Source of the DNA: an uncultured archaeon
GTDB taxonomy: Archaea; Asgardarchaeota; Lokiarchaeia; Sigyniarchaeales; SOKP01
NCBI GenBank assembly: GCA_964486045.1
Contig: CAZALK010000001.1
Location: 328,242-392,241 of the forward strand
Direction of reading: 5' to 3'
DNA length: 64,000 nt
Part shown: in pieces, positions 2,967 through 29,811 of the stretch
Numbering within the stretch: position 1 is the stretch's first letter
Layout of the letters: each line of letters opens with the position of its first letter
Notes under the pieces: model-generated
Told to the model about the DNA's origin: nothing
What the model saw: only the letters and a program-made list of their open reading frames with translations
Databases searched by the model: none
Translations under genes and position numbers: made by a program

Positions 2967-5900
2967 ATGGAAAAAATCGGAGCAGTTATGGTTGTAGGCG
3001 CTGGAATAGGAGGTTCCCAAACAGCGCTAGATCTAGGAGACACGGGCTATAAAGTCTATTTAATCGAATCATCCACAAGCATCGGTGGCGTTATGGCCCA
3101 ATTGGATAAGACCTTTCCCACTAATGATTGTGCGATGTGTATCATAAGTCCTAAACTGGTCACTGTCGGCAGGCACCCGAACGTCGATTTAAGTATTAAT
3201 TGTACAATACAAAATGTGTCTGGAGAAGCAGGAAACTTCACAGTTAAAGTCCTAAAAAAATCTTTATTTATTAATCCTGATACATGTACCGGTTGCGGTG
3301 TTTGCGGTATTAATTGCCCAGTTGAAGCAATAGATGTCTTCAATGAGGGTTTAGCTAAATATTCGGCAACTTCGGTAAAATATCCTCAAGCAGTCCCTCT
3401 AGTTTATGCAATTAATAAAGAATATTGTATTGGTTGCGGAGTATGTGCAGGAGTGTGCAAAGCTAAGGCAGTAGAATATGATAGAGAAGATGAAGAAGTC
3501 GACCTAAATGTAGGCGCTATAGTTTTAGCACCTGGATTTGATGAATATGTACCTGCTGAAGCCAATAGATATGGCTATCGAAACTTTAAAAATGTAGTTA
3601 CAAGTATTGAATTTGAAAGAATACTTAGCGCTTCAGGCCCATTTGCAGGAAGGGTTTTAAGACCTTCTGATGGAGATATTCCAGAAAGGGTTGCTTTTCT
3701 CCAATGTGTAGGATCACGAAATTATACTGGAGAAGGACAACCATATTGTTCAAGCGTTTGTTGTATGTATACAGCAAAAGAAGCCGTGATTGCTCATGAA
3801 CATCAACATCAAGTAAAGCCTACGATTTTTAGCATGGATATTAGGGCTTATGGAAAAGATTTTGATAAATATATTATTAGAGCTCAAGAACAATATGGGA
3901 TCCGATATGTTCGAAGCAGAATCTCCTCTGTAGAAGAAATTCCAGGTACTCAGGATTTAATACTCCACTATGAAACAGAAGATGGAAAAATTGTCGAAGA
4001 AATTTTTAATATGGTTGTATTAAGTGTTGGACTAAATCCTCCGGCAGATGCAGAATTCCTTGCAGAAAAATTTGGTATTGAATTAAATGATTATAAGTTT
4101 GCAAAAACAGATGTATTTAATCCAGTACAAACCACTAGACCGGGGATTTTTGCATGTGGTGCATTTACTCAACCTAAAGACATCCCTGAAACAGTCACGC
4201 AAGCGAGTGCAGCTTCAGGCTGTGTCAATGAACTTTTATATGAAAAAAGAGGTACATTAATTACAGAAAAAACCTTACCTCCAGAAATTTTTGTGGCTGG
4301 GCAACCACCACGCATAGGTGTATTTGTATGCCATTGTGGGATAAACATAGCGGGATATGTAGATGTCCCAGAAGTAACGAGATATGCGGGAACGCTACCG
4401 AATGTAGTTATGGCAGATAATAATTTATATACATGTTCTGCTGATACTCAAGGGATAATAAAAGAAAAAGTAGAAGAATATCATTTAAATCGTGTGATAG
4501 TTGCATCATGTACTCCTAGGACACATGAACCTTTATTCCAGGAGACAATAAGAGAGGCAGGATTGAATAGATACTTGTTTCAGATGGCTAACATTCGGGA
4601 TCAATGCTCATGGGTTCATATGAACGACTGGGAAGCAGCTACGCAAAAATCAAAAGATCTTGTGAGAATGGCTGTAAATAAAGCAAGACGATTAGGACCT
4701 ATAGAAAGAATAAAGTTAAATGTAAAAAAAGCAGCGTTAATTATTGGTGGTGGAATAAGTGGTTTAACAGCTGCTCTCAATTTTGCAAGTCAAGAATTTG
4801 AAACTCATTTAGTAGAGAGACAGGGAGAATTAGGCGGTTTTGCTAATCATGTTTATAACACCCTCGAAGGAGGGAATGTTCAGGAATATTTAAAGGATTT
4901 AATTGAAAAAGTCACTTTGAATAAATTTATTCATGTGTATACCAACGCCGAAGTTGAATATGTTGACGGTTATGTAGGAAATTTTAAATCAGCAGTAATT
5001 CATGGATCAAGTAAGGAAAGAGTAGAAATAAAACATGGAGTAGTAATTGTGGCAACGGGAGCTAAGGAATATCAGCCCAAAGAATATCTCTATGGAGAAG
5101 ATGAAAAAGTAATCTTACAATCCGAACTTGAAAAAATCTTAAATACGAATGGAAAATTCAAAGACAAGAAATCGATTGTAATGATTCAATGTGTAGGTTC
5201 TCGAAACGATGAGCATCCTTATTGTAGTAAAATGTGTTGCGCAGAAGCTATTAAAAACGCATTATTAGTGAAAAAGTTAAATCCCGCATGTGAAGTTACA
5301 ATTTTATTTCGAGACATTAGAACCTATGGTTTTAAAGAAAAATATTATAGAAAAGCACGAGAAGAAGGAGTTATCTTTCTACGGTATGATGAAAAAAATC
5401 CTCCTGAAGTTATTAAAGAAGGGGCATCAATTAAAGTGAATGTTAAGACACCGAAAGCTGGTGAAATATCTATTCCAGCGGATTGGGTAGCATTGAGTGC
5501 CGGTATTGTAGCCTCTCATGAGGAAAATGAAGAACTTGCCAAAAAGTTAAAAGTTCCCTTAAATGAGGACAATTTTTATTTAGAAGCCCATGTTAAACTG
5601 CGTCCAGTTGATTTTGCAACTGAAGGTATATTTGTTGCTGGAATAGCACATTGCCCTAAAACAATTGAAGATTCAATTTCACAAGCTAATGCGGCAGTTT
5701 CAAGGGCTTGCACAATTCTTTCCAAAGATGAGGTTGAAGTCGAAGGAAAAACTGCGAGAATTGATATTACTAGGTGTACAGGTTGTGCCATGTGTGTTGA
5801 GAATTGTGCTTATAACGCTATTGAGATAATTGAAGATCGAAGATTTGGTACAGTAGCAGCTATTAACCAAGCATTATGTAAGGGATGTGGAGCTTGTAGC

Positions 5901-6468: not shown

Positions 6469-7488
6469 GTGGGGATTGATGCAGAAAACCAGGATATAGA
6501 AAAAAATATCAGAGAGATTGCAAGAAATTTACTTAAAGAAAAAAGAGTGGACGCAATTATTGGTTATAAGAAAGGAACATTACCCTTACTTTCGCAACCA
6601 ATCATTATTAAAAAAGAAGAAGACGTTGATAAATTAATTTGGAATAATGTGTGTTATTCAAATTTAGCAAAATATTTCGTGCCTCGAGTACCAAAACTGA
6701 TAGGTGAGGAAAATAATAATTTGAAAGTGGGAGTTGTCGCTAAAGGGTGTGTTGGAAGAGCAATAAATCTTCTCGCAGCAGAACACCAAATTAATCTTGA
6801 TAATATAATTTTAATTGGTATTCCTTGTACTGGTTTAATTAATCGACAGCGTATTGAGATGGATATTGGCCAAAAAGAAATTACAGAAGTCTCAGTGTCG
6901 GAGGATAAAATTATTGTTAAAGGGAAAGATTTTGAAAAATCATTTCCATTTGATGAGTACATAAACGAATTATGTAAAACTTGTAAAGTTAAATCGCCAC
7001 CTACATCATCTAAAGTATCTGATATGTGTTTAGGTGATTGTCAAAAGTATTCATCTATTTCTGATGAGTTTGAGGATGTCTCAGAATTCGAATTGAAAAC
7101 ACCTCAAGAGAAATGGGATTATTTCAAGGAAATATTAAGTGTATGTACACGGTGTTATGCATGTAGGGAAGCTTGTCCAATGTGCTATTGTAACCTCTGC
7201 TTTGTTGACCAGAACAAACCCGTTTGGTTTGGTAAAACATCTGATATCTCTGATATCATGGTATTTCATCTAATCCGTGAAATTCATATGGCGGGGAGAT
7301 GTGTAGGATGCGGTGCTTGCAGTAGTGTATGTCCGATGGGAATTGACTTAAGTTTAATTAATCGAAAACTAGAGAAAATTGTAAAAGATAGATTTAAGTA
7401 CACTTCAGGAATGGATCCCGAAGAAGTACCCCCAATGGTAACATTTTCAATGGAGGATGATCAAGAATTTATGTTAGAGGAGGACTAA
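6469..7488 (+). CDS. FdhB/FlxC-like 4Fe-4S dicluster protein
   Basis: AKGC motif, CTRCYACREACPMCYC and HMAGRCVGCGACSSVCP. GGTGA RBS before the GTG start. Confidence 0.85.
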   Translation: MGIDAENQDIEKNIREIARNLLKEKRVDAIIGYKKGTLPLLSQPIIIKKEEDVDKLIWNNVCYSNLAKYFVPRVPKLIGEENNNLKVGVVAKGCVGRAINLLAAEHQINLDNIILIGIPCTGLINRQRIEMDIGQKEITEVSVSEDKIIVKGKDFEKSFPFDEYINELCKTCKVKSPPTSSKVSDMCLGDCQKYSSISDEFEDVSEFELKTPQEKWDYFKEILSVCTRCYACREACPMCYCNLCFVDQNKPVWFGKTSDISDIMVFHLIREIHMAGRCVGCGACSSVCPMGIDLSLINRKLEKIVKDRFKYTSGMDPEEVPPMVTFSMEDDQEFMLEED

Positions 7489-25912: not shown

Positions 25913-26527
25913 ATGATAAAATTCAAGGTTGTAGTTGCCGGCGCTAAGAACGTGGGGAAAACCTCTCTAATAAGACGTTATGCAACAGGAAAGTTCGAGA
26001 TCTCTACATTATCGACTATCGGGGTTGATTTTGAGACAAAGAAGGTAATTGTGGATGATAACGAAATCCTACTTAATATTTGGGATTTCGCAGGAGAATT
26101 CTGACTGCTCTTCGCAGTGGAACTCTAAAAAAAATTCAGATTGTTATTCCCTTCTTATATTTCCGGAGCGTCTGGAGCTTTAATGTTGTATGATGTCACT
26201 AATAGAGACTCTGTAAATGATCTTTATGACTGGATAAATGTCATTTCTTCCGTACCAAATTCACCAAAAACGAAAATTTTAATTGAAGCAAAAACAGATT
26301 TGAAACGGAATGTGAAAAAGGAAGAAGCGCAACAAATATTTGATAAGTTTGATTTTCAAGGAGAAATAATTGAAACTTCAGCAAAAACAGGTAAAAATGT
26401 AGAAAAAACATTTGAAATGTTAGGTCGTGAGATTCTTAAAAAATCTCTACAGAGATGCTCCAATTGCGGAAAAATGTACCCCTTAGAGTTAAAATTTTGT
26501 CAATATTGTGGGTCAAAAACGATTTAA
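25913..26527 (+). CDS. Rab-like small GTPase with C-terminal zinc ribbon, interrupted by a 30-nt insert; join(25913..26098,26129..26527) = 194 aa
   Basis: The two ORF-track pieces are in the same frame. GAKNVGKT, TIGVDF, WDFAGE | KKFRLLFPSYISGA, AKTD, ETSAK, CSNC...CQYC. Colinear with the 20829-21434 paralog once the insert is removed. Confidence 0.9.
26099..26128 (+). other. Candidate bulge-helix-bulge/loop (BHB/BHL) intron in a protein-coding gene
   Basis: TTCTGACTGCTCTTCGCAGTGGAACTCTAA: 10 codons including in-frame TGA and TAA. Exon GGAG (26093-96) pairs with CTCT (26123-26), both junctions fall 2 nt 3' of that 4-bp helix, and there is an internal ACTGC/GCAGT hairpin. Confidence 0.75.
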
Positions 26528-26538
26528 ATTTATAAATT
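26498..26538 (+). repeat. Direct repeat copy 1 (att-like), covering the last 10 codons (including the stop) of the GTPase gene
   Basis: TGTCAATATTGTGGGTCAAAAACGATTTAAATTTATAAATT; 38/41 identical to 28545-28585. Confidence 0.9.
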
Positions 26539-26611
26539 ATAATAGAGAAGGTAAAAATAGAGGAATCAGAAGAGTTTATGTAAAAGCCAAGAAAATTGGC
26601 AATTCTTTTCT

Positions 26612-26897
26612 GTCCTATCGTACGATTCTTCTGGGATATTTCAGAAAAATATCACCTGGGGCGGTGATGCGTGGGATGTAGGTGTTATTATATGGAAAAT
26701 ATTCACTTAAAATAATCAGAATAACAAACTAGAAATAATCAAGATAAGTTTAACCATAATCCTTATTTAATTCTATTTTTACTAATAAAAACTACTAATA
26801 CGAAAATTTCGTTAAAAGAATTGACTATTACCGATCTACCTTCATCAGAACCTAAGCCCCCCCATGTAGTATTCCAAATTTGACTCCCATTGCTATC
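26612..26897. pseudogene. Beta-propeller (SBBP-like) repeat fragments, one on each strand
   Basis: Plus 26612-26683 reads VLSYDSSGIFQKNITWGGDAWDVG; minus 26897-26799 reads DSNGSQIWNTTWGGLGSDEGRSVIVNSFNEIFV. Both carry the same DSxG...NxTWGG...D.G repeat. Confidence 0.65.
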
Positions 26898-27630
26898 CAA
26901 TTCTATTGGAACAGTTGAGTATCCATTCTTAATTATGGATGATATATTTGAGTCGACAAACGCTACGTATGGTATATATATCGAAAACACAAATAAATAC
27001 CTATTACTAAAAAATTGTTCGATATCAGCCGTGGATTACGGGATAGTACTAAAAAATGTATCTTACATTTCAATTAAAAAGGATAAAGTATTTGATCACA
27101 AAGAATATGGCGTTGTTATCTTAAATTCACAAAATGTTTCGGTTACTGATAGTGACATCCATAATAATGATAACGGAATTAAAATTCAAGAATCCGTTGA
27201 TATAGTATTAGAAAAAAACTTCATTTCGATGAATTACCTGCTTGGGATTTTTCTAATCAATTCTTCTTCCTGTAATGTTATATATAATTATCTATTTTCT
27301 AATCAATATGGGATAAAAACAGAGAATTCGAATTATAATAAGATTGTTGGTAATAATTTAGAATATCATGAAAATGCGATACATTTATCTCATTCAAATT
27401 TTAATATTATAATGAACAACAACGGAGTAGACAATATAAACGAAATCATGGAAAATAGTTGCCAAAACAATCTATTTGAAAGTAATTTTTCCCAGCAAGA
27501 AAGTGATATCATTATACCTAAACTAGACGTTACTATAATAATTGTATTTTCTGTTTCTTTTTTTTCTCTAGTTTATATTGTAATGAATGTATATCGTTAT
27601 AGGAAATTGTCAAAGTCTTCATCTTTATAA
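26890..27630 (+). pseudogene. NosD/CASH right-handed beta-helix domain with C-terminal TM anchor, 5'-truncated
   Basis: GTVEYPFLI, repeated GIxLxNSxNxxIxxN units, hydrophobic C-terminal helix with basic tail. No signal peptide; the 5' end abuts the inverted propeller fragment. Confidence 0.7.
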
Positions 27631-27694
27631 TCCTTGCATAAAAATAGTGTTATATACATAACATTAATAATTAGAATCGAAAGAAGAGAGTAAA

Positions 27695-28501
27695 ATGAAA
27701 GAACTAGAAAATTGTGGTATTGGAAGTCGAACTATAGACAAATTGAATAACTTAGGTGTTACAACAGTAAAAGAACTTGCACTTACACATTCCTATAAGT
27801 TGGTAGATGCGGGCATCGGCAACACAACTGTTACTAAAATATTGAAAAGTGCCAGAAAAACTTATATGGATATACATGGGTTCGATAATCATGATGCTGA
27901 ACGATTTGTCCTGAAAGGCGTTACTTTACAAGATGCAACAATTTTAGCCAAGATCCAAAAACAATTATCTTGCTTGTATGGTAGTTATTATTCTGTGAGG
28001 GCTTTTCGTAGTTTTGATACTCATCTTGATTATTATATAGATGAAAATACAGATAAAGAAGACTTCGGTATAGGTGAGTATACAGATAAAGAAGACAAAA
28101 TATATAAGAACAGAGTGGATTTTTGGTATTCCTTCGGCTGCATGTTTTATAAACTAGAGAAAGGTAGAGTCATTTTACTTTGGTATCATCCGTATTATAT
28201 AAACGCAGGGCCTTTTCCCATACTAAAGAAAATCCCCAAAGATTTATTGGAATTATCACATCTAAAATATAGCTGCATACTATGTACCAACAGAGCAATT
28301 GAACGCATGCCTGAAACCATCAGGAGTAATGATATTTTTGAGGTAAGAATAGAACCGTCCGAAACAAGTGCTTCCTATCTTGTTCAAGAGATTAAGGAGG
28401 TAGGGTCTGAGCTTAAAATAATTAGGAGAGGGGCACTTGATGGATATGATAACGAATTGGAATTTTTGCTTGACGAAGCTTTTATAAGAAGAGATTTATA
28501 A
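27695..28501 (+). CDS. Protein with RadA-N-like helix-hairpin-helix domain fused to an unknown domain
   Basis: GIGSRTIDKLNNLGVTTVKELA...AGIGNTTVTKILKSAR; no Walker A motif downstream. Confidence 0.75.
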   Translation: MKELENCGIGSRTIDKLNNLGVTTVKELALTHSYKLVDAGIGNTTVTKILKSARKTYMDIHGFDNHDAERFVLKGVTLQDATILAKIQKQLSCLYGSYYSVRAFRSFDTHLDYYIDENTDKEDFGIGEYTDKEDKIYKNRVDFWYSFGCMFYKLEKGRVILLWYHPYYINAGPFPILKKIPKDLLELSHLKYSCILCTNRAIERMPETIRSNDIFEVRIEPSETSASYLVQEIKEVGSELKIIRRGALDGYDNELEFLLDEAFIRRDL

Positions 28502-28544
28502 TTATTATTAGATTAGATAATCTAAAGGTTATTGATGAGTGGAA

Positions 28545-28585
28545 TGTCAATACTGCGGGTCAAAAACGATTTAAATTTCTAAATT
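28545..28585 (+). repeat. Direct repeat copy 2 (att-like; displaced GTPase 3' end)
   Basis: TGTCAATACTGCGGGTCAAAAACGATTTAAATTTCTAAATT still reads CQYCGSKTI*. Confidence 0.9.
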
Positions 28586-28737
28586 CTCTGAAAAATTGAA
28601 ATTCGTGAGTAATTCTTCTTTTTTTTTAGCTGTTTCAATCAATAACTAAATTTAATGATAGGTTTTTTAAGAAGGCTAAAGCGATAAGAAAAATTTATTT
28701 AAAAGTCTTAATAAGAAAAATTATATTACTATCAGTT

Positions 28738-29811
28738 TTGGTTTTAAAATTGAGCTACGAAATTAAAGAAGATATTACTGAAATAATCACAAGACTTAAG
28801 AAAGAGAGTATTTCATTTGAGGGAAAAACGATATTGGTTACAGGAGGAGCGGGCTTTCTGGGTTCTTGGATATGTGATGTTATGGTTGAACAAGGCGCTT
28901 TTTGCATCTGTTTAGATAATTTTTCATCAGGTCAGCCTGAGAATATACTACACCTTATGGATAGAGACAATTTTCGCTTTATTAATCATGACATTTCTTA
29001 CCCTATCTACTTCGGCTTCTCCTATCATCCGTTAGGTATTTGTATTGGAGACATAAAAAAAATTGACATTGTTATGCATATGGCAAGTATGGCGTCTCCC
29101 TTTGAATTTAAGGAGGAACCAATTTCAATTCTAAGAAGTAATACTCTGGGAACTTTGAATACATTAGGAATTGCCAAATTCCATAATGCACTTTTTTTTT
29201 ATACAAGTACTTCTGAAGTGTATGGAAATCCCCCAAAAGAAGTTGTTCCTACTTCTGAAAGTTATTTTGGTTATGTAAATCCTGTAGGACCTCGAAGTTG
29301 TTATGACGAGTCTAAAAGAGCGGGTGAAGCGTTTGTTAAAGCATATGAGCTTCAACATCAAATGCGAACTAAAACTGTTAGAATTTTTAATACTTCTGGA
29401 CCTAGAATAAGACATGGACCAGAATTTGGAAGAGTAGTACCAAATTTTATACACCAGGCGATAAACGATGATGACATAACAATATTTGGGGATGGATCTC
29501 AAACAAGGTCATTCATTTATGTAGTGGATGAAATTGAGGGTCTTTTAAAAATGGTATACAAGGATGAAGCTATTGGAGAAGTTATTAATTTAGGTAGTGA
29601 TAAGGAATATGCCATAATAGATTTAGCCAAAATTATAATTAAATTAACTAATTCAAATTCAAAAATTGTGTTTAAACCCTTACCTATTGATGATCCGATA
29701 CGTAGGTGTCCAAATATAAAAAAGGCAAAAGAAATCTTAAATTGGGAACCCCAAACTTCTTTAGAGGAAGGATTAATAAAAACAATTGCTTGGTTTAAAG
29801 ATAATGAATGA
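28738..29811 (+). CDS. UDP-glucuronate decarboxylase-like NAD-dependent epimerase/dehydratase
   Basis: VTGGAGFLGS, STSEVYG, GPRSCYDESKR, FGDGSQTRSF, DDPIRRCP. Confidence 0.9.
   Translation: MVLKLSYEIKEDITEIITRLKKESISFEGKTILVTGGAGFLGSWICDVMVEQGAFCICLDNFSSGQPENILHLMDRDNFRFINHDISYPIYFGFSYHPLGICIGDIKKIDIVMHMASMASPFEFKEEPISILRSNTLGTLNTLGIAKFHNALFFYTSTSEVYGNPPKEVVPTSESYFGYVNPVGPRSCYDESKRAGEAFVKAYELQHQMRTKTVRIFNTSGPRIRHGPEFGRVVPNFIHQAINDDDITIFGDGSQTRSFIYVVDEIEGLLKMVYKDEAIGEVINLGSDKEYAIIDLAKIIIKLTNSNSKIVFKPLPIDDPIRRCPNIKKAKEILNWEPQTSLEEGLIKTIAWFKDNE

What the first reader, a model, noticed from the sequence alone, without database searches (positions are those of the whole stretch)
26498..28585. The same GTPase gene serves as an integration site: 41-bp att-like duplication with synonymous differences
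Seen: the last 10 codons plus 11 nt of the GTPase gene recur 2047 nt downstream (38/41 identical). Both coding differences are synonymous (TAT/TAC, TGT/TGC), so both copies read CQYCGSKTI*. Between them lie only broken or orphan genes. Established: integrative elements carry a replacement 3' end of their target gene so that insertion restores it, usually a tRNA gene but sometimes a protein gene. Inference: this is a decayed integrative element targeting the zinc-ribbon codons of a small GTPase. Preservation of the protein end in both copies is consistent with the interrupted gene being functional. No integrase remains.
Basis: partly seen in the sequence, partly recalled or inferred. Interest (0 to 1): 0.7.

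Follow-up and report, generated by a model that had tools for sequence, protein, structure and literature searches.

The report
Displaced GTPase tail beside inserted genes
In this Asgard archaeon a 2-kb patchwork of foreign genes came in at the end of a small GTPase gene with a related replacement tip and pushed the original 41-base tip downstream; it is one of dozens of such scars in the genome and is best explained by a known kind of homology-anchored gene transfer, not by a decayed virus-like element.

Summary
The 41-bp repeat is real (38/41, unique in the genome) and brackets a true 2,006-bp insertion: 39 of 42 measurable relatives have the empty site, and none has a second GTPase end. The three closest relatives match copy 2 at all three differing bases, so copy 2 is the displaced native end and copy 1 most likely arrived with the cargo.

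The 'decayed site-specific element' reading is weakly supported. There is no integrase, no second filled site and no attP in IMG/VR. Homologues of the cargo sit behind other host genes (hdrB, RNR) with 311-513-bp diverged tail duplications. An automated scan finds 49 3'-end and 23 5'-end duplications in this genome against 6 inverted ones, with no common core. One RNR case shows the recipient and a near-donor: the tip is 98% and the cargo 85-100% donor-like, joined to the native tail at a 3-nt microhomology.

Best reading: homology-facilitated illegitimate recombination (C-terminal displacement). This scan reported the same kind of scar before on other DNA. One cargo gene is intact. The GTPase also carries a 30-nt intron-like insert shared with relatives.

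The parts
25913..26527 (+). Rab-like small GTPase gene with C-terminal zinc ribbon; the target gene, single orthologue in relatives
   Evidence: Pfam Ras/Roc and DZR; open frame of about 195-198 aa in 36 of 36 congeners
26099..26128 (+). 30-nt in-frame insert with two stops, forming a hairpin; candidate bulge-helix-type mRNA intron (a separate feature, but it decides whether the target gene works)
   Evidence: Same insert at the same site in 8 metagenomic loci from three clades; 3' exon open and mostly synonymous among carriers
26498..26538 (+). Copy 1: the gene's present 3' tip, most likely the incoming replacement allele
   Evidence: Differs from the three closest relatives at all three diagnostic bases; TAT TGT is the state of more distant relatives G013 and L294
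26510..26531 (+). 22-bp core identical in both copies (also 28557-28578)
   Evidence: Sequence
26539..28544 (.). Inserted cargo, 2,006 bp, a mosaic of at least three pieces
   Evidence: Absent from relatives; pieces mapped
26607..26692 (+). Fragment of a beta-propeller-type repeat surface-protein gene
   Evidence: 85% to G019:C156
26795..26902 (-). Second fragment of the same repeat-gene family, inverted
   Evidence: 77% to G022:C162
26890..27630 (+). NosD/beta-helix membrane-anchored protein gene lacking its first ~76 codons
   Evidence: Pfam NosD; 72% identical to residues 77-316 of a 336-aa gene in G061
27695..28501 (+). Intact 268-aa accessory gene: RadA-like helix-hairpin-helix N-terminal domain plus a domain of unknown fold; not recognisably a recombinase or nuclease
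   Evidence: Full-length homologues 67-71%; 6 of 153 other genomes of the order, three of them partial matches; fold searches match only the HhH lobe
28545..28585 (+). Copy 2: displaced native 3' end of the GTPase gene
   Evidence: TAC, TGC and the post-stop C are shared with the closest empty-site relatives L292, L293, L296; followed by the native spacer
28586..28737 (+). Native intergenic spacer of the empty site
   Evidence: Aligns with the spacer after the GTPase stop in L292/L293/L296 and G013
28738..29811 (+). UDP-glucuronate decarboxylase-like NAD-dependent epimerase gene, the normal downstream neighbour
   Evidence: Pfam; directly behind the GTPase in relatives

Best explanation
A scar of homology-anchored additive gene transfer (homology-facilitated illegitimate recombination, giving C-terminal displacement). 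Step 1 (inferred): a DNA piece from a related Promethearchaeota lineage, carrying the GTPase end followed by accessory genes, entered the cell. Step 2 (inferred): its GTPase part paired with the resident gene and replaced the last codons. Step 3 (inferred here, shown for an RNR locus with the same cargo gene): its far, non-homologous end was joined back to the chromosome at about the point where exchange stopped, so nothing was deleted. Result (shown): intact gene with an incoming tip, then cargo, then the old native tip and native spacer. The 'repeat' is two alleles, which is why the coding differences are synonymous. No element-encoded recombinase is needed; later spread or loss can go by ordinary recombination.
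For: Empty site in 39 of 42 measurable GTDB loci and no second GTPase end in any. Copy 2 carries the native state at 3 of 3 diagnostic bases. Homologues of the cargo gene lie behind hdrB (513 bp, 84%; 49 synonymous and 12 non-synonymous codon differences) and RNR (311 bp, 71%). In RNR locus L078 the in-gene tip is 98.4% and the cargo 85-100% (mostly 94-100%) identical to G061, the displaced tip and its flank are native (84% and 92% to G001), the 98% tract starts within a few bases of the junction, and the junction has a 3-nt ACA microhomology. Own genome: 49 direct 3'-end and 23 direct 5'-end partial duplications against 6 inverted; in the 36 without a nearby paralogue, 319 synonymous and 227 non-synonymous differences, 34-660 bp long, median identity 82%, no common core. 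The displaced copy is the one nearer to relatives at rpS7 and CDC48, and at a 390-aa gene for its closest relative. rpS7 is hit in three genomes with different junctions and opposite cargo orientation. Only one of 20 islets inspected holds a tyrosine recombinase.
Against: The donor of this very insert was not found, so neither the crossover point nor a junction microhomology is shown at this locus. A 41-bp repeat with a 22-bp identical core fits archaeal att lengths (PMC6563490). HFIR is reported as rare and was shown only in naturally competent bacteria (PMC5361080, PMC2884548); DNA uptake in this lineage was not tested. Genome-wide counts are automated and include false positives; the 5'-end class was not confirmed as simple insertions in two tries. 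280 kb of G006 gave no case, so density varies between genomes.
Confidence: 0.65

Rival explanations
1. Decayed or trans-mobilised site-specific integrative element: an integrase recombined attP with the GTPase 3' end, and the integrase gene was later lost.
For: Element-supplied 3' end restores the gene. Repeat length and 22-bp core are att-like; 14 thaumarchaeal elements use 3' ends of protein genes, one a Zn-finger gene (PMC6563490). The genome encodes five tyrosine recombinases, one inside the CDC48 islet. The scrambled left end of the cargo shows decay.
Against: No integrase or remnant in the insert. No other filled site in 53 congeners or in the metagenomic loci. No attP in IMG/VR, and the cargo gene is not in viral contigs. 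Cargo homologues use unrelated targets with 300-500-bp diverged repeats. No core shared among the genome's duplications.
Confidence: 0.15
2. Single-crossover (Campbell) pop-in of a small integrase-free circle that carried a GTPase tip from a relative; such circles could form by pop-out between the repeats and recycle.
For: Gives the same anatomy. Identical 5' lead segments in the rpS7 repeats (50 bp in G000, about 135 bp in G001) fit pop-out/pop-in or gene conversion between copies.
Against: Needs a prior illegitimate closure of the circle, so it does not explain the origin. In L078 exchange and junction coincide at the edge of the repeat rather than at a random point inside it. 41 bp is short for RadA-type pairing (established knowledge). 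No circle could be looked for.
Confidence: 0.12
3. Plain target-site duplication of 41 bp by a staggered-cut or repair event, followed by drift.
For: C-to-T changes are the common kind in AT-rich genomes (own knowledge). Other first-reader notes describe perfect 20-bp duplications in this genome (e1-5505435, not checked).
Against: All three changes would have to fall in the working copy and none in the free copy (P about 0.025). Copy 1's codons match more distant relatives. No terminal inverted repeats and no transposase or casposase. Long, 65-85% identical, synonymous-rich repeats elsewhere cannot be target-site duplications.
Confidence: 0.05
4. Homing-type spread: a cargo nuclease cuts the empty allele and repair copies in the tip plus cargo, as with free-standing homing endonucleases beside partial gene duplications.
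For: Such anatomy is reported in fungal mitochondria (PMC7487136). The 268-aa protein has a DNA-binding-type HhH lobe.
Against: No nuclease family or fold detected (the model is only moderate, pLDDT 68). Close homologues sit at unrelated targets. The empty allele dominates. No nuclease family among the 25 top Pfam families of 43 cargo proteins.
Confidence: 0.02
5. Tandem duplication of the whole GTPase gene followed by deletion, or an assembly artefact.
For: Small GTPase paralogues are numerous in the genome.
Against: No relative has a second GTPase there; the spacer after copy 2 is the empty-site spacer; other assemblies have the same layout.
Confidence: 0.01

Closest known systems
Homology-facilitated illegitimate recombination (Acinetobacter baylyi, Streptococcus pneumoniae, Pseudomonas stutzeri; as summarised in PMC2884548 and PMC5361080; the primary papers were not held)
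   Same: One homologous anchor, one non-homologous join, no dedicated recombinase, gain of unrelated genes.
   Different: Here inferred from genomes of an uncultured archaeon; the join falls inside the anchor gene so the native tip is kept; the uptake route is unknown.
C-terminal displacement at rhs, CDI and Vibrio T6SS effector-immunity loci (PMC5361080)
   Same: Incoming 3' end plus downstream genes, with the old 3' end shifted downstream as an orphan.
   Different: Targets here are housekeeping genes (GTPase, rpS7, EF-2, RNR, CDC48, hdrB); the tip is functionally equivalent and the gain is the cargo.
Archaeal integrated elements at 3' ends of protein genes (Thaumarchaeota iMGEs and casposons, PMC6563490); Asgard Yucahu-i (PMC11529989)
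   Same: Direct repeat at a gene's 3' end, gene restored, empty site in relatives.
   Different: Those carry an integrase, casposase or other mobile-element genes and have short att sites or target-site duplications (mostly under 26 bp; 11 bp for Yucahu-i). Here there are none, repeats run 34-660 bp, are diverged alleles and share no core.
Free-standing homing endonuclease genes beside partial duplications of atp6/cox1 in fungal mitochondria (PMC7487136)
   Same: Inserted ORF between an intact gene and a partial copy.
   Different: No endonuclease detected; the filled allele is rare.

Membership tests
Site-specific integrative element (tyrosine/serine recombinase) | Recombinase gene within the element | tested here: not met
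   Pfam of insert ORFs; none of the five PF00589 genes lies within 100 kb
Site-specific integrative element (tyrosine/serine recombinase) | attL/attR direct repeat with identical core, target gene restored | tested here: met
   22-bp identical core, frame intact
Site-specific integrative element (tyrosine/serine recombinase) | Same att site reused by independent or larger elements | tested here: not met
   One copy or none in 53 congeners; no second GTPase end in metagenomic and GTDB loci; not found in those searched
Site-specific integrative element (tyrosine/serine recombinase) | attP on a virus or plasmid | tested here: not met
Site-specific integrative element (tyrosine/serine recombinase) | Excised circular form | not testable with these tools
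HFIR / C-terminal displacement scar | Displaced native 3' end downstream of the cargo, followed by the native flank | tested here: met
   (3 of 3 bases); same at RNR, rpS7, CDC48
HFIR / C-terminal displacement scar | In-gene tip from another allele, arriving with the cargo | tested here: inconclusive
   Favoured here but the donor was not found; shown for RNR locus L078 against G061
HFIR / C-terminal displacement scar | Far junction non-homologous, at most a microhomology | tested here: inconclusive
   Similarity ends abruptly left of copy 2; microhomology not testable without the donor; 3-nt ACA in L078
HFIR / C-terminal displacement scar | No sequence specificity: many targets, variable junctions | tested here: met
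HFIR / C-terminal displacement scar | Dependence on RecA/RadA and on DNA uptake | not testable with these tools
   Needs experiments
Transposon or casposon with target-site duplication | Terminal inverted repeats and transposase/casposase | tested here: not met
   No inverted repeat among the 25 longest pairs joins the two ends; no such Pfam hit
Free-standing homing endonuclease insertion | Endonuclease gene in the insert | tested here: inconclusive
   No family or fold match, but the C-terminal domain of the 268-aa protein remains unassigned

The most novel reading that the evidence does not exclude
These Asgard archaea use gene tips as portable landing pads: tip-plus-cargo pieces, perhaps as small circles, are exchanged between species by a routine integrase-free pathway that is a main route of gene gain in the lineage and leaves dozens of scars per genome at core genes such as rpS7, EF-2, RNR and CDC48.
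Probability: 0.15. Interest if true: 0.65.

Novelty: new member of a known kind. Interest (0 to 1): 0.32.

Why it matters
The single locus is an ordinary recombination scar. Its value is as one entry in a census: this genome has some tens of such scars, several at essential genes, and one related locus preserves a near-donor, the recipient and the junction almost intact. That gives a testable route by which Promethearchaeota (Loki-type) archaea gain accessory genes without viruses or integrases; my paper searches found no description of it in Asgard archaea, but they were limited. It also warns that att-like repeats at gene ends in these genomes should not be annotated as decayed proviruses without an integrase or a second filled site.

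Tried and rejected
Exact 33-mer in metagenome contigs: no hit. Specific att pattern and cargo protein in IMG/VR: no hit; the loose pattern gave short matches only. The 5-kb insertion in G004 and others behind the GTPase are at different positions in the spacer and have no GTPase-end duplication; some apparent 730-bp gaps were due to a small insert inside UXS. The idea that copy 2 begins with a donor zinc-ribbon gene start giving a microhomology found no support. An early reading that copy 1 was native, based on G013, was overturned by closer relatives. The trees mixed strands and were redone; the G028 column was misoriented and is not used. Atlas feature search gave only scores under 0.8. Two 5'-end duplications did not resolve into simple empty sites. 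The sigma-70 promoter scan was uninformative. The primary HFIR papers were not held.

Full report
Observation. The two copies are at 26498-26538 and 28545-28585, 38 of 41 identical and 2047 nt apart. They differ at two third codon positions (TAT/TAC, TGT/TGC) and at one base after the stop; 22 bp between these are identical. The next best match in the 5.18-Mb genome is 29/41. Other assemblies show the same gene spacing, though they may come from the same samples. The nearest relatives are mostly labelled Promethearchaeota MAGs, so this is an Asgard archaeon of the Loki type.

Empty site. The GTPase is single-copy and open in all 36 congeners first sampled, and the epimerase (UXS) gene follows it directly in nearly all. 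Among GTDB loci, 39 of 42 measurable ones have a 116-178-bp spacer and none has two GTPase ends. A pattern for the tip gives two hits only in the own genome among 54 of the genus. The few longer spacers hold insertions at other positions, without the duplication. Tandem duplication is therefore refuted and the 2,006 bp between the copies are an insertion, but no second filled site was found.

Which copy is native. G013, the nearest GTDB genome, matches copy 1 in the two codons and copy 2 after the stop, which first suggested a crossover in the core. Three closer metagenomic relatives (L292, L293, L296; 90-93% nucleotide identity, all empty with a 166-bp gap) read TAC TGC and the post-stop C, that is copy 2 at all three positions, and the spacer behind copy 2 aligns with theirs. 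Copy 2 is thus the displaced native end. Copy 1's codons are those of more distant relatives (G013, L294). If the repeat were a plain duplication, all three changes would have had to hit the working copy (P about 0.025). An incoming tip is favoured but not proven, since the donor was not found.

Cargo. It is a mosaic: two short pieces of a repeat surface-protein gene in opposite orientations, then a NosD-type gene lacking its first ~76 codons and an intact 268-aa gene, the last two 78% identical as a block to G061. The 268-aa protein has five full-length homologues at 67-71% and matches in 6 of 153 other genomes of the order. Its model (pLDDT 68) matches only the helix-hairpin-helix lobe of RadA/Rad51; the rest is unassigned. 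No recombinase, transposase or nuclease was detected. The genome's five tyrosine recombinases lie elsewhere.

The same cargo gene at other targets. In G020 it sits behind hdrB with a 513-bp duplication at 84% identity (49 synonymous, 12 non-synonymous codons). There the displaced copy falls in a clade (98/95) with G003 and G015, to which the downstream flank is also closest, while the gene's 5' part goes with G034. In locus L078 it sits behind ribonucleotide reductase with a 311-bp duplication at 71%. The in-gene tip is 98.4% identical to G061 and 62-72% to all others, the cargo is 85-100% (mostly 94-100%) identical to what follows RNR in G061, and the displaced tip and its flank are 84% and 92% identical to G001. 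The continuous 98% tract begins at about -315 from the stop and the displaced copy at -309, and donor and recipient share ACA at the join. This is what an anchored exchange plus an illegitimate join predicts.

Genome-wide context. With symmetric rules, the own genome gives 49 direct 3'-end and 23 direct 5'-end partial duplications against 4 and 2 inverted. The 36 3'-cases without a nearby paralogue are 34-660 bp long (median 104), 67-99% identical (median 82) and 1.7 kb apart at the median, with 319 synonymous and 227 non-synonymous codon differences; CDC48 has 28:1, rpS7 8:0, a PolB-like gene 42:15. They share no common core. The list is automated and contains false positives. Empty sites were confirmed for EF-2, rpS7 and a 390-aa gene. 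At rpS7 the nearest relative matches the displaced copy at 6 of 8 sites and the in-gene copy at none; related cargo occurs there in three genomes with junctions at -101 and about -176 and in opposite orientations. One of 20 islets inspected carries a tyrosine recombinase; the others carry LRR, PAS, surface, Hsp90 and unknown proteins. A 280-kb sample of G006 had no case, so this genome may be unusually rich.

Mechanism. Shown: insertion, empty allele, native identity of copy 2, absence of a recombinase, many unrelated targets. Inferred: a relative's DNA paired at the GTPase end, replaced the tip and was joined back at a non-homologous point. This matches homology-facilitated illegitimate recombination and the C-terminal displacement described for rhs and T6SS loci (PMC5361080; PMC2884548). 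Confidence 0.65. A decayed integrase element remains possible (0.15), because archaeal elements do use 3' ends of protein genes (PMC6563490) and a 22-bp core is att-like; pop-in of an integrase-free circle is also possible (0.12). Known Asgard elements have short att sites and their own integrase (PMC11529989).

Is the target gene functional? It is split by 30 in-frame bases with two stops at 26099-26128. The same insert lies at the same site in eight metagenomic loci from three clades, keeps its hairpin, and the exon behind it stays open with mostly synonymous change among carriers. That points to a spliced intron, but splicing was not tested.

Verdict. A real feature and a new member of a known kind. 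The scan has reported the same kind of scar in several other genomes, which I treat as leads only; my reading was on record before those notes were seen. The added value is the genome-wide census and the donor-recipient pair. Interest 0.32.

Noticed in passing
window 26099-26128: 30-nt stop-containing hairpin insert in the GTPase gene, present at the same site in L292, L293, L296, L297, L298, L313, L315 and L328 and absent from close relatives of some of them (G019, L320): patchy, probably a spliced BHB/BHL-type intron gained or lost several times.
   Followed up: partly
L061:11134, L297:8009, L300:4676, L313:1619, L320:7073: The neighbouring UXS gene of several relatives is split near codon 180 by an insert of about 30 nt; in L061 and L300 it folds with a 4-bp helix and two 3-nt bulges, a canonical BHB shape. 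The window's UXS lacks it.
   Followed up: partly
L078:886-5151 compared with L090 (G061:C23): Near-complete donor-recipient record of a tip-plus-cargo transfer at ribonucleotide reductase with a 3-nt microhomology; G061's own RNR tip is on a long branch, so it may be foreign as well.
   Followed up: yes
L095 (G000:C13:50593-51944), L175, L176: rpS7 3'-end duplications in three genomes with related cargo (72-80% identical), inverted in G000; the cargo family also occurs behind another small GTPase (L107).
   Followed up: partly
L104 (G000:C23:51571-60122): 8.4-kb islet behind CDC48 with a 195-bp duplication (28 synonymous, 1 non-synonymous) that does contain a 413-aa tyrosine recombinase; the best candidate for a true integrative element among the islets.
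   Followed up: partly
L096 (G000:C13:94157-95766): EF-2 3'-end duplication of 45 bp around 1.5 kb with an empty site in five relatives; EF-2 is the common casposon target in Thaumarchaeota, but no casposase was seen here.
   Followed up: partly
G000:C29 (25,965 bp): Contig whose bases 741-1035 recur exactly at its end and which encodes a tyrosine recombinase: possibly a circular or integrated element.
   Followed up: no
L061:5700-10500 (G004:C164): 5-kb insertion in the GTPase-UXS spacer ending in a 130-aa ORF with an EYNGxQHY motif that looks like a restriction-fold nuclease (from memory, not tested).
   Followed up: no
L291:889-942 and 3210-3263; L289:5690-5789 and 7352-7451: Nested scars: the 3' end of the 268-aa cargo homologue is itself duplicated around a CDC48-N/TPR gene, and a 100-bp piece of a MoxR-like gene is duplicated nearby.
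   Followed up: no
RNR loci in G000:C2:153629-155944, G005, G018, G024, G063, G077: The RNR match is split at two shared positions by 1-1.5-kb insertions, probably inteins.
   Followed up: no
window 28036-28096: 28-nt direct repeat, 33 nt apart, inside the 268-aa gene (89%), not obvious in the homologues.
   Followed up: no
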